Positions 9,001-33,000 of a stretch of DNA of 64,000 nucleotides are shown one piece after another (the stretch's first letter is position 1; each line of letters opens with the position of its first letter). This DNA comes from Mytilus edulis. Taxonomy: Eukaryota. Made by a program: the position numbers. Location of the stretch: the NCBI RefSeq assembly GCF_963676685.1, contig NC_092345.1, forward strand, positions 52,514,001 to 52,578,000, in the 5' to 3' direction.

Positions 9001-12000
9001 TGATATTTTATTGACTGTATATCGCTAGTTTACTGTAGAATCATTTAAGTTCAAACACGCCTAAACCTAAAAAGGTGTACTCGACTTTCTCTTTTCTATT
9101 AGATTATTGACAATTTTGGGGATTTAAAAAAAAAACTGTAACGGGGCAGAAATGCTAATGTATGCTTTAAAAAGGCAAATTTATGCACAAAAAAGATCCA
9201 CGTGAATTTGCATCAACCACAATCGACTGTTTTGTAAAACTTTGTCTATAAATTTGAATTAAATAAATATTTCGAAGCTCAATTCAATAATTTGAGTAAA
9301 AACACACATATAAGATGCATAAAATCCTAAATAAGGCACACTCATTCAACTTTTAAAGCCCATTGAAACAGATGGTAACACTTAAAATTTACCAACTTCG
9401 CCTATTTACCTTCTCTGACATAGAGTTCAGTGGTTGTCGTTTGTTGATGTGTTACATATTTGATTCACTCATAGGGTGTTTGCATCGGAAGTAAAACATT
9501 TATTCTAAAAAACAGTTGTTAGCATGATACGGGTTATGTTCTTCTCATATATTTTATGATGGTAGGATGCTAAACATCAAACGGGTGGAATTGCGCTTGA
9601 TTTTCATATGATGAAGACATAATCTTTCAATCAGTTTTCTTTTGTTATCTTTTCTGACATCAGACTGGAACTTCTTTTAAACTAAGTTTTACTGTGCGTT
9701 ATGTTGTGTTACTAAATATTCCACATTGGCTAGAGGTATAAGGGGAGTGCTGATCGAGATCTCACAAATTATGTTTAACCACACCGCATGTTGGCGCTTG
9801 TCCGAAGTCAGGAGCCTCTGACCTCTTCTTCAACTAGTCAGGAATAGATAGAGAATACTACTAGAATCATTTTCATAATAGCGTGAACAACCGCAATACT
9901 AAGTCGGTAATTATACATGTACTGAATCAGTTACCTTGAACTTGTTTGTCATCGGCTATCGATAATATTAATTGTACGGTCACTCAGTCTGTCAGGGGCC
10001 TTCTAATGGCGATTTAAATAGGAGAAAAGAGTAAAGTACATGCAGGTGCACGAAAAGAAAAAAAAGAAAATTCAAGTATTAAAGATTTAAATCAACACAC
10101 TAGGTTTATTCCTCTGCTAGTAATTCGTATTGATTGATTCAGACATTTAGAACCTTGGACGCCACACAGTTAGCATGTCTTTAACACGCACAATATGACA
10201 AATAGGTGTTACAGACGAACTAATCTGACCCAGTCAATTATTGATAACCTGAGCACGCCCAGAAATGGTCTTGTCCACGCTGTAATGAAAATGAAATCTG
10301 TCTGGTACCAGAAGAAGAGGCACCAATAACTTCAGATATTTTAGATCAAGAAATGTACCTAATTTAATTCTTATAATGAAAGAATATGTTTTCTTATATT
10401 TTCAAATATTATAATTATATTATAACTTTGAATACACAAGATCATAGTGTAGCTGACGAGGTTATGAACGAATCTGTTAATTACAAGTAGTTATTTCATT
10501 TATTAAAACGATTTCACATTTGGCTACATAATATAGGATTGTTTCCTATTGTAAAAATGATAATAACAAAAACCATAACATGTAAGTACATTTTACATAA
10601 AAATTTTGATTTTAAAAATTTTCTCGGAAGTTCTTATGACAAATGCTGATAAACGCTGCATCTTTCTACTATTAAGATTCCAATTAATTAAACATTGATT
10701 TGGAGTATAGCATATTTCCAAGTGAATTATAGTACGGGTCATTTCCAAGTGAATTATAGAACTGAGTATTTCCAAAGGAATTATAGTAAGGGTCATAAGC
10801 GTCAGGATGGACAACATTTCTATCAAAATAATGCTTGATGACAGGCGACTTTTGTGGTGCTATTCCAGCTGTCATTTGTGGTGCTATACCAGCGGCCATT
10901 TGTCGTGCTATACCAGCTGCCATTTGTTGTGCTTCACTAGCTGTCATTTGTGGTGCTATTCCAGCTGTCATTTGGGGTGATATTCCAGCTGTCATTTGTG
11001 GTGCTATACCAACTCCCATTTGTGGTGCTATACCAACTCCCATTTGTGGTGCTATTCCAGCTGTCATTTGTGGTGCTATACCAACTCCCATTTGTGGTGC
11101 TATACCAACTCCCATTTGTGGTGCTATTCCAGCTGTCATGTGTGGTGCTATTCCAGCTGTCATTTGTCGTGCTATTCCAGCTGTCATTTGGGGTGCTATA
11201 CGAGCGTCCACTTTGGAGTTATTAGCCCGGATCATGTTTCCTGCGATCATGTGTCCTGTGCCTGCATTGCTCCCGCTGAATTGTTGCGGTGCAATATTTG
11301 CCATTTGTGTTCCTTGATTCATATTATTTGTTGCCATATACTGTTGTGCCATATCATACATGTTTTGTAAACTATACAGTGGATGACTGGGAAGAAGAAT
11401 ACTTTTCCCCGTGAAACAATCCCGCGTTTCATCGGCTTTTAAAACCATGATGTCTTCGCAGCCATCACGGATAGTTTTGCAATGCTTTGGTGGTGTCGGA
11501 CCTACACCTGCTAACGCACCAACTCTGAAAGAAATTACAGCATAACTTTCTTTATGTTAAAAATAAAAATAAAAAATAACTGTTACATTTTATCCCAAAA
11601 CAAAAAAAAAAACACTCATGATATTTAAGAACAGTAAATCAGATTTATTCCCTATAGATTCTTACAAGTTATAACATAAACGGTACCAATTTTTCTGCAC
11701 CAGATATCGTTTCGATAAACAATGTCTTTTCGGTGGTGCTCAAGGCCAAAATATTTAAAAATCCAAAGCTTAGTAAAAAGATGAAGAGCTATAAATGAAT
11801 ACGTAAACTTGTCGCTCCTTTAAAAAACTTATTCTAAAAGGTTACCTATTCAACACCGTAATAAGATCATTGAATATTGTTTTTATTGGAATAAATATTG
11901 ATTTTGTTATCAGTAGATTAAAAGCTAACTAAATTTTACTAGTATATTATATATATAGATATTCATGGATCTACAATCTGTCGATACCTGTAATTTGGCA

Positions 12001-30000: not shown

Positions 30001-33000
30001 GCAAATCCCCCCTTTTTTGCTCCCTTATAAAAAGCAAATAATTAGTCTACGTGTGTCATTTTGAGATAAGAAATGTCAATTCAAAAGCAATACAACTGTT
30101 TACGAAAAATACTTACCACTTAATGATTTTATATTGTATATGTGATTTCGGAATGGCACTTGGATGGACATTGAAAGCACTATTTTTTATGTAAATTTTA
30201 ATGTCGTCATTATACTGGTGTTATTACATGTAATTGCCATGCCTTTGACCCTCTTATGGGTGTAATTCGTGCTTTAATAAAGAACTATTTGCCCCGACCA
30301 CTGGCACTGGATGACTTGGGTATAAAATGTCCAGATAAAAGTAAAAAGTAATTAAACTTGCCCACAACAAGATAGTTGTCCGCTGTTTCTACATTTACAG
30401 TCCATACAATCTGCTGTTCTAAAACTGGATCCATCCAATATATCAAGTCCTTTGTATGAACATACCGGTATCAATCGTCCAGTCACTGGAAAAATAATAG
30501 TAACTCTTATTGAAATATGAAACAAAAATCTGAATAAACAATGCAGTTCTAAAGGAAATTTATCTTGTACTTTTTAAACAATAATTTTAAACATTCGTTG
30601 ATAGTTGCGGTATTTTTAAGAAGAGTTTAAAAAGCAGAAAAAAAATCTAAATTGAACTCTACCTGTTTTATCAACTCGACCAGAACTCTGATGGCAGAAA
30701 CCATTGACCAGTGGTAAAATCACGACCAGGAATATGAACGACTGCATGTTTACACTATTTTCCTATGTATGAAAGCTACACACAATATGACAGTTTATCA
30801 TATATCTCGGATAGAGTGTAATATTTATAGCTTTGTCGTGTTCTTTATGAAGATCATCATTTGTATGTTACTGAAATTGATTTGAAATAAACATAATTAA
30901 TCTTAAGTGTTCATAACAACAACATGCTGTTGGGTATACAAAATGTTTATTTTGATGATGACACAGCGAAGAAATGACGTTGCCTCTGGTCAGATAAACG
31001 CCTTAGTTGGAAGATATAACTACTGAACAAAAATATGACGAATGTTTTTGTCCAATAATTTAATAACACTATTTCACATATGCATTTGTCGCAATATACA
31101 AGAGAGGACAAAGGACATGAATAGATTCGTCAATTTCAACAAAGAAAAGTGATGAAAAATGCTTGTTTTCCATTTTCTCAAAAGTATATATAATTTCTTC
31201 TAGGCCTACACAAAAATGTTTTAAAAATTCTAAATAATTATATTATCTGGTATTCATGATGAGTTTAATATCATTCTCTTAAAAACATGAATAAATGTTT
31301 GCAACTTGGTAATCACACTTTGAATTACAAAATTGAAGAACTATCCAATGGTACAAGTTTTCAAGGTAAAACTACTTCAACTTAAATAAACTCGGAGTAT
31401 CCTTAACATTAATGAAGACAAAATTTGGACTCCTTACTCTATACCCACATCATATCTAATAAAGGTCCCATGTCTTAAGATATCAGTAAACCGATTTTAG
31501 CAATCATGGAATATTCAATCCCTCTTAATTTCCATTGTACAGTAAAGAAGGTATGGAACAATCATATTTCTTGCTATTGACAAAAACTCACGAAACAACA
31601 TATTGTTAGAAATGTTTGAAAAATTGAATATTCTATCAAACATTATGCCTACAGAAAAATGTATAACTGAAAAAAATGTGAATGAATTCAGTATCTTAAC
31701 AGTCTGAGGATTTTTGAAAATGCAAGAACTATAAAAAAAAAAGTTAAAATTAAAATTGATAAAATAAACCAACGCAAAGTTTGCTGCAAGGGCTATTAGA
31801 AGAAGGAAAAAACATGAAAATAATTTGGTTACAAAAGCAAAAATGATACAAATGTTGCATCAATGGTAATGTCAACATAAATTTAATGTATAACATGTAA
31901 TTTGATATTTTTTTAACAGGAATTACATTGCTCATGTAGCTATTACAAAATACAATGATTACCTATTATATATAATAGATGATTTGATATATAATTTCTC
32001 GTTTTTTGGTAAGTTCAACCAATCATGAATTGATTTTTTTTGCTCTAAATCCAAAGGCAAATGTGTAATCCATATTCAGGACGAGAACAAATGAACAATA
32101 GATTATATATATATCATGAAGGGTTTCTTCAAAGTGGTAGAGCTTAATAGGACAGCCATTTAGACTGACAATCAAAAATAATGTTGAAACGGGTAGATAT
32201 TTTACCTTCCATAACGCAACCTACAAAAATCTCATAGGGTCTTGGCAATGTTCCTTATCGTGCAGAGATAGGAACACTCTCCTTTCGCGTGATATCGGAT
32301 TTGTGGTCCCGATCCCGACCATGCGTGGCTAAATATGTTGCATCCGACACAGCTTAACAGTAACCCTCTTCAGCATGCTGCCATTGCATGTCTTATAAAA
32401 CTTCATATCATCTAAATAAAAAGAACCAGCTTTTCAATTAAAAGAACACAGCAATTACAACGGGTTTTTTTTTAGTATTTACAATTATCTAGATGCAATT
32501 CCATATATCCAATTTAATGGGTAAATCCTCAGTGTAAAATTATCCGTACCTAGTAGATGGAAGATTGAGTTATTTCCCTTAAAACGTATAATTGCAATGA
32601 AAGTTAGGTGTAGCTATCAATACTCAATATAAAAAGAGCCCCCTCCGACTCCCCTACAACCCCAAATCAAAAATATGGAGCTTCATACATGTATATTGTC
32701 AGTAGTAAGGCATAGAATTTTCATAAGCCTCACCTTTAACTTTGGTTGGTGCCCCCTCCCCTCCAAAATAAATAAATAAAATAGAATGGAATGGAATGGA
32801 ATGGAATGGTATATAGACAATATACTTACTTTAAATTGAGAAATCTTACCAAAAAAATATTTTTGATAATTGTGGTATGTCCAATATATGGAATGCACAG
32901 TTTTCTGATAAATGGGTGTCAAAATGTATTGAGCAAAAATTCAAAGATCAGTTTCAACAAGAATGCTTTGCATTTGTTGCAGAATCACCTAAAACTTTAT

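What the first reader, a model, noticed from the sequence alone, without database searches (positions are those of the whole stretch)
10684..30747. Tandem pair of secreted beta-microseminoprotein-like genes, each fused to a different low-complexity tail
The ORF track does not show these genes because the domain is split over three exons. Seen: both genes have an 85-nt exon 1, a 124-nt exon 2, the same intron phases, a signal peptide and 10 Cys in PSP94 spacing, and both domains end in DETRDC.TGK.I. After that they diverge completely. One has about 240 aa of Met/Gln/Ala/Gly octapeptide repeats plus Tyr/Asn nonapeptides; the other has about 75 aa rich in Pro/Met/Asn/Phe with KK and RK sites. Established: vertebrate beta-MSP is a small stand-alone seminal protein that binds CRISP proteins, and a squid homologue is an egg-surface contact pheromone. 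Inference: this is a lineage-specific modular family in which a conserved recognition domain is anchored in a secreted matrix (shell, byssus, mucus or gamete coat) by fast-evolving tails.
Basis: partly seen in the sequence, partly recalled or inferred. Interest (0 to 1): 0.72.

Follow-up and report, generated by a model that had tools for sequence, protein, structure and literature searches.

The report
Mussel MSMB-like matrix protein gene pair
Two neighbouring blue-mussel genes encode secreted proteins with a beta-microseminoprotein-type head and a floppy, fast-changing tail, and their closest studied relative is PfN44, a pearl-oyster shell protein, so they are new members of a known bivalve family.

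Summary
Two three-exon genes lie on the minus strand, both with 85-nt and 124-nt first exons and intron phases 1 and 2. Gene A is 16718..10684 (349 aa) and gene B is 30747..29465 (185 aa). Exon-3 queries returned NCBI Mytilus edulis records of exactly those lengths.

The domain is a true PSP94/beta-microseminoprotein homologue. A profile of 110 relatives hits only MSMB-family chains in the PDB (E 5.9e-16 to 1.8e-7). AlphaFold models of both proteins match PSP94, MSMB3 and SSP-2 best.

The head-plus-tail design occurs in many bivalve orders: 40 of 145 family representatives have tails of 45 aa or more. One member is already published: PfN44, a Pinctada fucata shell matrix protein. Gene B's domain is 55% identical to it, and A, B and PfN44 form one supported clade. 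The tails are not wholly unrelated, because A, B and PfN44 share a C-terminal end-piece.

A shell or ligament matrix role is inferred, not shown. The mussel proteins are basic where PfN44 is acidic, and I saw no expression or proteome data.

Verdict: new members of a known kind, of moderate interest.

The parts
16634..16718 (-). Gene A exon 1: ATG, signal peptide and first Cys of the mature protein (85 nt, phase 1, donor GTAAAG).
   Evidence: tblastn of NCBI record P0009 residues 1-28 is 100%.
12922..13045 (-). Gene A exon 2: N-terminal half of the MSMB-like domain with six Cys (124 nt, GT donor, phase 2).
   Evidence: tblastn of P0009 residues 29-70 is 100%.
10684..11524 (-). Gene A exon 3: C-terminal half of the domain (3 Cys, ends DETRDCFTGKSI), the 239-aa tail and the stop codon.
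   Evidence: tblastn is 100%. In the AF2 model the domain has pLDDT above 90 and the tail 39-55.
10851..11205 (-). Octapeptide array in gene A's tail (24-nt unit x 14.8 copies; consensus roughly GIAPQMTA, one Met per unit).
   Evidence: TRF; rows listed. The unit number differs among Mytilus orthologues: 14, 10, 15, 8 and 1.
10714..10796 (-). Tyr/Asn nonapeptide repeats (27-nt unit x 3.1 copies). They lead into the C-terminal end-piece NSLGNMLYSKSMF.
30663..30747 (-). Gene B exon 1: ATG, signal peptide and first Cys (85 nt, phase 1).
30362..30485 (-). Gene B exon 2: N-terminal half of the domain (124 nt). It is followed by a GC-AG intron with its donor at 30361..30360.
   Evidence: NCBI record P0007 uses this junction.
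29465..29813 (-). Gene B exon 3: C-terminal half of the domain (ends DETRDCKTGKKI), the 76-aa non-repetitive tail and the stop codon.
   Evidence: AF2 tail pLDDT is 49-64.
19292..24501 (-). LINE-type retroelement between the two genes. It is not part of either gene. ORF2 is 1208 aa with endonuclease and reverse transcriptase domains; the upstream ORF is 486 aa.

Best explanation
These are two old tandem paralogues in Mytilus edulis. They belong to the bivalve PfN44-type branch of the beta-microseminoprotein (PSP94/MSMB) family.

Each protein has three parts:
- a cleavable signal peptide;
- a compact head of about 93 aa with ten Cys and the two-lobed MSMB beta fold;
- an intrinsically disordered tail, encoded in the same terminal exon as the second half of the head.

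Gene B groups with pearl-oyster PfN44 and its ark-shell and scallop relatives. Gene A is a divergent Mytilus paralogue. Its tail recently grew a Met-containing octapeptide array by repeat expansion.

The most likely function is that of a secreted extracellular-matrix protein, made by the mantle and built into shell, ligament or periostracum matrix. In this reading the disulfide-locked head serves as a protein- or glycan-binding or dimerising module. The tail supplies self-association and cross-linking: Met-rich repeats, Tyr-rich nonapeptides and a conserved hydrophobic C-terminal end-piece.

Shown here: gene structure, homology, fold, tail disorder, repeat turnover, family distribution, and a weak, single-comparison match between the C-terminal ends of the A and B tails. 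Inferred: secretion, tissue, matrix localisation and what the head binds.
For: Gene models:
- Exon-by-exon translations retrieve identical NCBI records of 185 and 349 aa.
- Those records map back at 100% (gene B's exon 3: 99.1%, junction overrun).
- Orthologues of A exist in M. galloprovincialis, M. trossulus and M. coruscus.

Homology to MSMB:
- A 115-aa Haliotis protein named beta-microseminoprotein-like is 48% identical to B's domain (E 2e-19). It passes Pfam PSP94 at 24 bits against a cut-off of 22.
- 35 of 110 relatives hit PSP94 at E<=0.01.
- The family profile finds 6 PDB sequences at E<=1, and all six are MSMB family.
- Foldseek top hits are 6rwc, 6imf_B and 3ix0 for B and 3ix0, 6rwc, 2iz3 and 6imf_B for A.

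Link to PfN44:
- P0018 is PfN44 [Pinctada fucata].
- B against PfN44 is 55% identical over 109 aa, E 1e-42. A against PfN44 is 43%, E 8e-25.
- In the tree, the A orthologues plus B, Tegillarca, Ylistrum and PfN44 form a 7-row clade with SH-aLRT 95.
- PfN44 was found by screening for secreted proteins with tandem repeats and is reported to act in shell formation (passages in PMC4445274, PMC5824888 and PMC5519542).

Tails:
- pLDDT is 39-64.
- Octapeptide number varies from 1 to 15 among Mytilus records.
- 27 of 42 tails have no detectable tail relative at E<=1e-3.
- The last 15 residues are enriched in L/M/F/I/V/W/Y, 0.46 against 0.25. In 34 of 41 tails the last window is in the top tenth (Wilcoxon p 1.3e-11).
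- A profile of the last 18 aa of five B-group tails scores best at the very C-terminus of A (0 of 500 shuffles as high).

Context from the literature: Met-rich regions are reported as common to insoluble shell and ligament matrix proteins of P. fucata (PMC7591529: abstract, section 6 and passages).
Against: - No expression, splice-read or proteome data could be examined. The tissue and the matrix role rest on homology to one characterised protein.
- PfN44 is acidic (mature pI 4.25), while A and B are mildly basic (8.30 and 8.06) with few acidic residues in their tails. PfN44's reported mineral-binding behaviour may therefore not transfer.
- In the main text of the 72-protein P. fucata shell proteome paper, PfN44 appears only in the introduction and the reference list.
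- Neither mussel protein reaches Pfam's PSP94 cut-off on its own: A scores 14.6 bits against 22, and B has no hit.
- The C-terminal sequence motif does not generalise beyond the A/B/PfN44 clade. Only 3 of 32 other tails reach p<=0.05, and 4 of the 7 A-type tails tested were not significant. The 3 significant ones are orthologues of each other, so they count as one observation.
- Other MSMB-like transcripts in bivalves were reported from gill and haemocytes (single passages in PMC3552849 and PMC4234419).
- The tree used the quick method on 95 columns, and 47 of its 90 inner branches are unresolved.
Confidence: 0.55

Rival explanations
1. Hinge-ligament or other elastic-matrix protein, mainly for gene A. 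The Met-bearing octapeptide array would act like the Met-rich repeats of ligament proteins (LMP, abductin), rather than as a mineral-regulating shell protein.
For: - The tail of A is 10% Met, with one Met in each 8-residue unit over 15 units, and is rich in G/A/P/Q. It is predicted to be disordered.
- The literature describes LMP as a Met-rich framework protein of the Pinctada ligament and lists abductin among Met-rich proteins (passages in PMC7591529 and PMC13080008).
- Scallop and oyster family members have Gly/Met-rich tails.
Against: - This is a resemblance of composition only. I had no LMP or abductin sequence, so homology is untested.
- The array is nearly absent in M. coruscus (1 unit), so it cannot be an old, essential ligament module.
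Confidence: 0.15
2. Mucosal or humoral defence protein: an antimicrobial or pathogen-binding MSMB-like head with a mucin-like or sticky tail, secreted by gill, mantle epithelium or haemocytes.
For: - Chicken MSMB3 is antibacterial and binds heparin (passages in PMC9363672).
- A beta-microseminoprotein transcript changes in clam haemocytes after Vibrio challenge (one table row, PMC4234419).
- An MSMB probe is on a M. galloprovincialis gill array (one legend line, PMC3552849).
- A Mya arenaria family member has a Thr/Pro mucin-like tail and is named mucin-5AC-like.
- A and B are mildly basic.
Against: - The array and haemocyte transcripts cannot be tied to these two genes.
- The nearest characterised relative is a shell matrix protein.
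- The pI of 8.1-8.3 is far from MSMB3's reported 10.4.
Confidence: 0.15
3. Reproductive protein, as in vertebrates and squid: a seminal, egg-coat or contact-pheromone protein. The tail would tether it to a gamete coat.
For: - Vertebrate MSMBs act in seminal plasma, and an MSMB relative is an egg-coat component in marsupials (PMC3268785, title and abstract).
- The squid egg-surface pheromone is recalled only; I did not check it.
- Rapid tail evolution is typical of reproductive proteins (inference).
Against: Nothing in the sequence points to gonad. The closest relatives with known biology are shell proteins. Tailed forms are a bivalve-wide feature, while the abalone and brachiopod relatives are mostly stand-alone.
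Confidence: 0.1
4. Byssus or foot adhesive or thread-matrix protein. The Tyr-rich nonapeptides would be converted to DOPA.
For: - A's tail ends in three Tyr/Asn nonapeptides, and the protein has 11 Tyr.
- Mussel foot proteins are repeat-rich and Tyr-rich (recalled, not checked).
Against: - Only 3 such units are present. Tyr is about 3% of the whole protein (11 of 349), which is well below my recollection of foot proteins.
- Relatives occur in non-byssate adults such as oysters, Mya and Sinanodonta.
Confidence: 0.05

Closest known systems
PfN44, shell matrix protein of Pinctada fucata (AGG35567.1; Pan et al. 2014 J Biol Chem, which I could not read)
   Same: - Signal peptide, then the same ten-Cys head: 55% identity to B and 43% to A.
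- Then a long low-complexity tail ending in a similar NSL-x-x-hydrophobic end-piece.
- Same supported clade in the tree.
   Different: - PfN44 is acidic (pI 4.25) with a 330-aa Thr/Ser/Gly-rich tail.
- A and B are basic (pI 8.3 and 8.1), with tails of 239 aa (Met/Gln/Ala/Gly octapeptides) and 76 aa (no repeats).
- Apart from the end-piece, the tail interiors show no detectable similarity.
Vertebrate beta-microseminoprotein / PSP94 family (Pfam PF05825; PDB 3ix0, 2iz3, 1xhh, 6rwc, 6imf_B)
   Same: All ten Cys positions, the two-lobed beta fold, and a signal peptide followed at once by the first Cys.
   Different: - The vertebrate proteins are stand-alone chains of about 90-110 aa. The mussel proteins carry tails of 76 and 239 aa.
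- Sequence identity in the structural alignments is 18-27%.
- Neither mussel protein passes Pfam's cut-off alone.
- CRISP binding is untested.
Stand-alone lophotrochozoan beta-MSP-like proteins (Haliotis, Sinanodonta, Lingula records; EST-based molluscan MSMB-like genes of Frankenberg et al. 2011)
   Same: The same domain. Haliotis P0015 is 48% identical to B. Mytilus MSMB-like sequences were already noted (PMC3268785, section 10).
   Different: These proteins end within about 5-15 residues after the last Cys. A and B continue into long tails.
Met-rich insoluble matrix proteins of bivalve shell and ligament (NU-5, LMP, MRNP34, abductin)
   Same: Met-rich, repeat-rich, low-complexity regions in secreted matrix proteins (PMC7591529 abstract, section 6 and passages; PMC13080008 passages).
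   Different: This is an analogy of composition only. I had no sequences to compare, and the passages read report no MSMB-like head for them.
Single-domain von Willebrand type C (SVWC/VWC) proteins
   Same: Small Cys-rich beta-rich secreted modules. They give weaker structural matches: CCN3 VWC 5nb8 at E 0.02 for B and 0.39 for A.
   Different: MSMB structures rank above VWC for both models. Only 5 of 110 relatives touch Pfam VWC and 5 touch SVWC at E<=0.01, against 35 for PSP94. A and B hit neither.

Membership tests
PSP94 / beta-microseminoprotein (PF05825) | The protein itself scores above Pfam's gathering cut-off (22 bits). | tested here: not met
   A (P0009) scores 14.6 bits, E 0.05. B (P0007) has no hit at E<=10. 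Single exons have no hit.
PSP94 / beta-microseminoprotein (PF05825) | Homology by profile or through intermediates to bona fide members. | tested here: met
   The 110-sequence profile hits only MSMB-family PDB chains: 6 of 6 at E<=1, from 5.9e-16 to 1.8e-7. A Haliotis intermediate is 48% identical to B (E 2e-19) and scores 24 bits, above the 22 cut-off, on PF05825. 35 of 110 relatives hit PSP94.
PSP94 / beta-microseminoprotein (PF05825) | Ten conserved cysteines in family spacing. | tested here: met
   Ten invariant Cys columns in A, B and Haliotis. The same ten are aligned to human MSMB and snake SSP-2 in the printed profile alignments. The disulfide pairing itself was not examined.
PSP94 / beta-microseminoprotein (PF05825) | Two-lobed all-beta fold. 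| tested here: met
   In the AF2 models the domain pLDDT is mostly above 90. MSMB-family chains are the best Foldseek PDB hits, with target-normalised TM 0.58-0.63 for B's top three and 0.49-0.61 for A's top four.
PSP94 / beta-microseminoprotein (PF05825) | Small stand-alone secreted protein of about 90-110 aa. | tested here: not met
   The mature proteins are about 169 and 333 aa, with tails of 76 and 239 aa.
PSP94 / beta-microseminoprotein (PF05825) | Binds CRISP-family proteins. | not tested
   I ran no complex prediction or assay and make no binding claim.
PfN44-type bivalve shell matrix proteins | N-terminal head homologous to that of PfN44. | tested here: met
   B is 55% identical (E 1e-42) and A 43% (E 8e-25). 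They share a clade with SH-aLRT 95.
PfN44-type bivalve shell matrix proteins | Secreted protein with a tandem-repeat, low-complexity tail. | tested here: met
   A has 24-nt x 14.8 and 27-nt x 3.1 arrays. B's tail is low-complexity and predicted disordered but has no repeats. The repeat criterion for PfN44 comes from passages in PMC4445274.
PfN44-type bivalve shell matrix proteins | Acidic protein (the original paper's title calls PfN44 an acidic matrix protein). | tested here: not met
   The pI is 8.30 for A and 8.06 for B, against 4.25 for PfN44.
PfN44-type bivalve shell matrix proteins | Made by the mantle, present in shell, and affects CaCO3 polymorph. | not testable with these tools
   No transcriptome or proteome data were available. 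Supplements are closed and the original PfN44 paper is not held.
SVWC / VWC domain proteins | Match to the Pfam VWC or SVWC models, or VWC as the best structural match. | tested here: not met
   A and B have no VWC or SVWC hit. VWC structures rank below MSMB structures.

The most novel reading that the evidence does not exclude
The MSMB/PSP94 fold is the shared head of a bivalve-wide family of shell and ligament matrix proteins, and PfN44 is simply the first one studied. In this family the tail is the evolving 'material' part. It is re-invented again and again inside one terminal exon: Met/Gly-rich, mucin-like, Gln/Pro-rich, or octapeptide arrays. It stays bracketed by the head and a hydrophobic C-terminal end.

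On this reading, gene A is a young Met-rich elastomeric or cross-linking matrix protein specific to the Mytilus edulis species complex.

The held literature that I could search does not connect PfN44 with beta-microseminoprotein. 'microseminoprotein' with 'shell matrix' returned 0 papers. None of the 8 papers with 'microseminoprotein' and 'biominerali' is among the 21 PfN44 papers. The original PfN44 paper could not be read, so it may already say this.
Probability: 0.25. Interest if true: 0.55.

Novelty: new member of a known kind. Interest (0 to 1): 0.36.

Why it matters
This links a vertebrate seminal and egg protein fold to mollusc shell-matrix biology. It gives PfN44, so far treated as a pearl-oyster novelty, a family, an ancestry and orthologues in a model mussel.

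It also offers a clean natural example of how matrix proteins diversify. The folded head is conserved. The disordered tail sits in the same exon and changes by repeat gain and loss even between sibling Mytilus species.

For biomineralisation work it yields two concrete candidate genes in M. edulis, and a testable question of what the head binds. It does not reveal a new kind of system.

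Tried and rejected
- Pfam on single-exon peptides gave no PSP94 hit, only sub-threshold chance matches (Arm-DNA-bind_3, DUF5613).
- phmmer of B alone against the PDB gave only weak hits (SSP-2 at E 0.013, chicken MSMB3 at 0.85, plus two unrelated chains). The profile search was needed.
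- The ESM Atlas search with A's tail found no usable feature hit, and its structural rows all had TM<0.5 to unrelated families.
- A C-terminal motif profile trained on 8 tails did not generalise. Of 32 other tails, 3 reached p<=0.05 and 7 gave no match at all. I therefore claim a family-wide bias in composition, and a sequence motif only within the A/B/PfN44 clade.
- DNA comparison of the two loci found no similarity beyond one 27-nt chance match. No recent duplication, gene conversion or shared promoter is detectable.
- KK and RK as processing sites: rejected as unlikely by inspection. The KK after the domain is replaced by KS in A and by QP in PfN44.
- Reading the original PfN44 paper failed because it is not held.
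- A literature link between microseminoprotein and mollusc shell was not found. One search was badly designed and uninformative. One search listed only the top 10 of 266 papers, none of them holding PfN44.

Full report
**1. What is in the sequence**

The window has no N and about 32% G+C. Both genes lie on the minus strand.

Gene A:
- Exon 1 is 16718..16634 (85 nt, donor GTAAAG).
- Exon 2 is 13045..12922 (124 nt, GT donor).
- Exon 3 is 11524..10684, with TAA at 10686..10684.

Gene B:
- Exon 1 is 30747..30663 (85 nt).
- Exon 2 is 30485..30362 (124 nt).
- Exon 3 is 29813..29465.

Intron phases are 1 and 2 in both genes.

Gene B's second intron begins with GC (GG|GCAAGT). The GT four bases further on would shift the frame into a stop after 18 codons. 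I read this directly.

Each exon was translated on its own and searched on its own.

The exon-3 peptides alone retrieved two public NCBI records, both named 'uncharacterized protein [Mytilus edulis]'. They are 185 aa (P0007) and 349 aa (P0009), and both are 100% identical to the query. Those lengths are exactly what 85+124+349 nt and 85+124+841 nt predict.

tblastn puts both records back on the three exons of each gene at 100% (99.1% for gene B's exon 3, where the match runs 2 residues past the junction) and finds no third copy in the window. All full-length analyses below use these database records.

An older M. edulis record (P0013) is a chimera of B's exon 3 with A's exons 2-3. This shows the same order and strand in another assembly.

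**2. Is it more than chance?**

Yes. A and B are 39% identical over the head (E 1e-28). All ten Cys are invariant columns in an alignment with a Haliotis protein. Orthologues of A exist in M. galloprovincialis, M. trossulus and M. coruscus.

At the DNA level the two loci share nothing but a 27-nt chance match, so the duplication is old.

Between the genes lies a LINE-type element. Its ORF2 is 1208 aa with endonuclease and reverse transcriptase domains, and its upstream ORF is 486 aa.

**3. The head is a beta-microseminoprotein domain**

Single exons give no Pfam hit. Whole B gives none. Whole A gives PSP94 at 14.6 bits, below the 22-bit cut-off. So neither protein passes the curated threshold alone.

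Three other lines establish homology:
- **An intermediate.** A 115-aa Haliotis cracherodii protein, which NCBI names beta-microseminoprotein-like, is 48% identical to B's head (E 2e-19). It passes PF05825 at 24 bits.
- **An exhaustive profile search.** It found 164 representatives at E<=1e-3. Of 110 that I aligned (A2), 35 hit PSP94 at E<=0.01, against 5 each for VWC and SVWC. The A2 profile finds six PDB sequences at E<=1, and all six are MSMB family: snake SSP-2 at 5.9e-16; human and porcine beta-microseminoprotein from 1.6e-11 to 2.2e-9; chicken MSMB3 at 1.8e-7. The ten Cys are aligned.
- **Fold.** AlphaFold2 models give pLDDT mostly above 90 for the heads. The best Foldseek PDB matches for B are 6rwc_A, 6imf_B and 3ix0_A (E 1.9e-4 to 1.3e-3; target TM 0.58-0.63). 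For A they are 3ix0_A, 6rwc_A, 2iz3 and 6imf_B. VWC domains and a tick complement inhibitor rank lower.

**4. The tails**

B's tail is 76 aa, rich in Asn/Leu/Pro/Phe and without repeats. A's tail is 239 aa.

A's tail holds a short predicted helix (residues 122-134, pLDDT 72-77). After it come 15 octapeptide rows (residues 177-296) with one Met every eight residues, then three Tyr/Asn nonapeptides. Both tails are predicted to be disordered, with pLDDT 49-64 for B and 39-55 for A.

The octapeptide number is 14 in this window by the motif count. It is 10 and 15 in two M. galloprovincialis records, 8 in M. trossulus and 1 in M. coruscus. The array therefore expanded recently and is still changing.

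The tail and the second half of the head share one exon, so tails can change by slippage or read-through without exon shuffling. That last point is inference.

**5. The wider family**

Of the 150 representatives listed, 145 hold the domain. Of those 145, 40 have at least 45 residues after it, 25 have at least 100, and 7 have at least 200. Some rows are exon-3-only ORFs from genomic contigs, so these counts are rough.

The 30 look-ups gave these taxa:
- **Named records with tails:** Tegillarca, Ylistrum, Pinctada, Argopecten, Mizuhopecten, Saccostrea, Ostrea, Ruditapes and Sinanodonta. Mya has a Thr/Pro mucin-like tail and is named mucin-5AC-like. Sinanodonta has three consecutively numbered records. 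Haliotis asinina has a 46-aa tail, and one Branchiostoma record has a tail.
- **Stand-alone forms:** Haliotis, Sinanodonta and Lingula.
- **Not a family member:** a sea-urchin hit (P0062), which is a CRIM1-like VWC-repeat protein.

Tail-only BLAST links few tails. Of 42 tails, 27 are singletons at E<=1e-3, and A groups with five others.

On a quick maximum-likelihood tree of 93 heads, the tail label needs 8 changes, against a mean of 22 in shuffles (0 of 500 shuffles as low). A single origin is not excluded. 47 of the 90 inner branches are unresolved.

**6. The key relative**

Representative P0018 (439 aa, E 3.4e-36 to the profile) is PfN44 of Pinctada fucata.

B's head is 55% identical to it (E 1e-42) and A's is 43% identical (E 8e-25). 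The three A orthologues plus B, Tegillarca, Ylistrum and PfN44 form a clade with SH-aLRT 95.

I could not read the original paper, Pan et al. 2014, because it is not held. I saw only its title in reference lists. The title calls PfN44 an acidic matrix protein that stabilises magnesium calcite and inhibits aragonite crystallisation.

Passages in other papers add three points:
- PfN44 was found by screening for secreted proteins with tandem repeats and acts in larval shell formation (PMC4445274).
- It was studied by RNAi (PMC5824888).
- It is described as playing 'paradoxical roles' in crystallisation (PMC5519542).

**7. The tails are not wholly unrelated**

Across 41 tails, the last 15 residues are enriched in L/M/F/I/V/W/Y: 0.46 against 0.25 in the rest (Wilcoxon p 1.3e-11). 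In 34 of 41 tails the last window is in the top tenth. The rows are related to one another, so the p-value overstates independence.

I built a profile from the last 18 residues of five B-group tails: B, a close relative, Tegillarca, Ylistrum and PfN44. Its best score in A's tail lies exactly at A's C-terminus, and 0 of 500 shuffles score as high. The same holds in the M. trossulus and M. coruscus orthologues. Four other A-type tails were not significant.

A broader motif profile did not generalise: 3 of 32 tails reached p<=0.05.

My reading is that the ancestor of A, B and PfN44 already had a tail with this end-piece, and that the tail interiors were since replaced or expanded. This rests on one independent comparison: the three significant tails are orthologues of one another, and direct pairwise matches of the tail ends were not significant (E 0.35 for A against B, 0.096 for B against PfN44).

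**8. Function**

These points are shown or read directly:
- Each protein starts with a hydrophobic N-terminus followed by Gly and then Cys. In the profile alignment this stretch lines up with the signal peptide and first Cys of SSP-2.
- The head is folded and the tail is disordered.

The rest is inferred: secretion into an extracellular matrix, most likely the shell or ligament matrix made by the mantle. That inference rests on homology to PfN44 and on tail composition.

Met-rich regions are reported as common to insoluble nacre, prism and ligament proteins of P. fucata (PMC7591529: abstract, section 6 and passages). LMP is described as a Met-rich ligament framework protein (PMC13080008 passages).

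There is also a vertebrate parallel. Chicken MSMB3 is found in eggshell membranes, binds heparin and is antibacterial (PMC9363672 passages).

Four things count against a simple transfer of function from PfN44:
- A and B are basic (pI 8.30 and 8.06), while PfN44 is acidic (4.25).
- PfN44 is named only in the introduction and references of the 72-protein shell proteome paper.
- MSMB-like transcripts were seen in Mytilus gill arrays and clam haemocytes, although these cannot be tied to A or B.
- No expression or proteome data could be examined, and supplements were closed.

**9. Novelty**

MSMB-like genes in molluscs, including Mytilus, were reported from ESTs in 2011 (PMC3268785, section 10 read in full). 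PfN44 was published in 2014. UniRef already labels one tailed scallop member 'Beta-microseminoprotein'. So this is a new pair of members of a known kind.

The explicit link between PfN44 and the MSMB fold may be unrecognised in print. In the held library:
- 'microseminoprotein' with 'shell matrix' gave 0 papers.
- 'microseminoprotein' with 'mantle' gave 3 unrelated papers.
- 'microseminoprotein' with 'biominerali' gave 8 papers, none of them among the 21 PfN44 papers.

The original paper and most subscription journals were not searchable, so this is not proof of absence.

**10. Verdict**

- The best explanation is a tandem pair of PfN44-family matrix proteins, each an MSMB head with a disordered tail. 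The structural part is near certain and the functional part is about even odds.

Noticed in passing
window 30356-30362 (minus strand): Gene B's second intron uses a GC donor (GG|GCAAGT), where gene A has GT at the same codon position. The nearby GT would break the frame.
   Followed up: partly
window 19292-24501 (minus strand): A LINE-type retroelement lies between the two genes. Both of its long ORFs are uninterrupted: 486 aa, and 1208 aa with endonuclease and reverse transcriptase domains.
   Followed up: partly
window 12247-12453 and 26127-26309; 15174-15416 and 26756-27238: Dispersed repeat copies give near-identical ORF strings in the six-frame list. One pair member lies in an intron of gene A (12247-12453 in intron 2, 15174-15416 in intron 1), the other in the A-B intergenic region. 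They are probably SINE/MITE-like elements.
   Followed up: no
window 60597-62192 (plus strand): An EF-hand-like ORF start (Pfam EF-hand_5, E 1.2e-5, just below cut-off) runs into two 38-bp minisatellites: 60792-61697 (23.8 copies) and 61739-62169 (11.6 copies). They explain the G+C and GC-skew peak and the overlapping three-frame ORFs.
   Followed up: partly
window 29-838 (minus) and 56275-56901 (minus): Exon-sized ORFs match a sulfotransferase domain (E 4e-8) and a DNA/RNA non-specific endonuclease domain (E 5.7e-25). These are neighbouring genes unrelated to the finding.
   Followed up: no
window 49215-50276 (plus): A 353-aa open frame rich in Asn/Ser/Thr/Pro/Lys has no Pfam match. It could be a low-complexity exon or chance.
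   Followed up: no
database records P0013 and P0011: An older M. edulis record fuses gene B's exon 3 to gene A's exons 2-3, which is a mis-annotation. One M. galloprovincialis record of gene A lacks the Tyr/Asn nonapeptides and has a different C-terminus. This is either an allele, an assembly difference or a splice variant.
   Followed up: no
Sinanodonta woodiana records KAL3867205-KAL3867207 (cluster of P0031): Three consecutively numbered tailed family members sit on one contig. This suggests tandem arrays of this family in a freshwater mussel too.
   Followed up: no
family tails (P0029, P0035, P0037, P0056, P0090, P0110, P0145): A second tail type (Ruditapes, Mya and unnamed records) starts with a shared P-H-P-D-like motif just after the head. 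It often ends in an aromatic F-L-P-W-F-like C-terminus. Ostrea P0128 and P0130 end in a long hydrophobic stretch that looks like a GPI-anchor signal.
   Followed up: no
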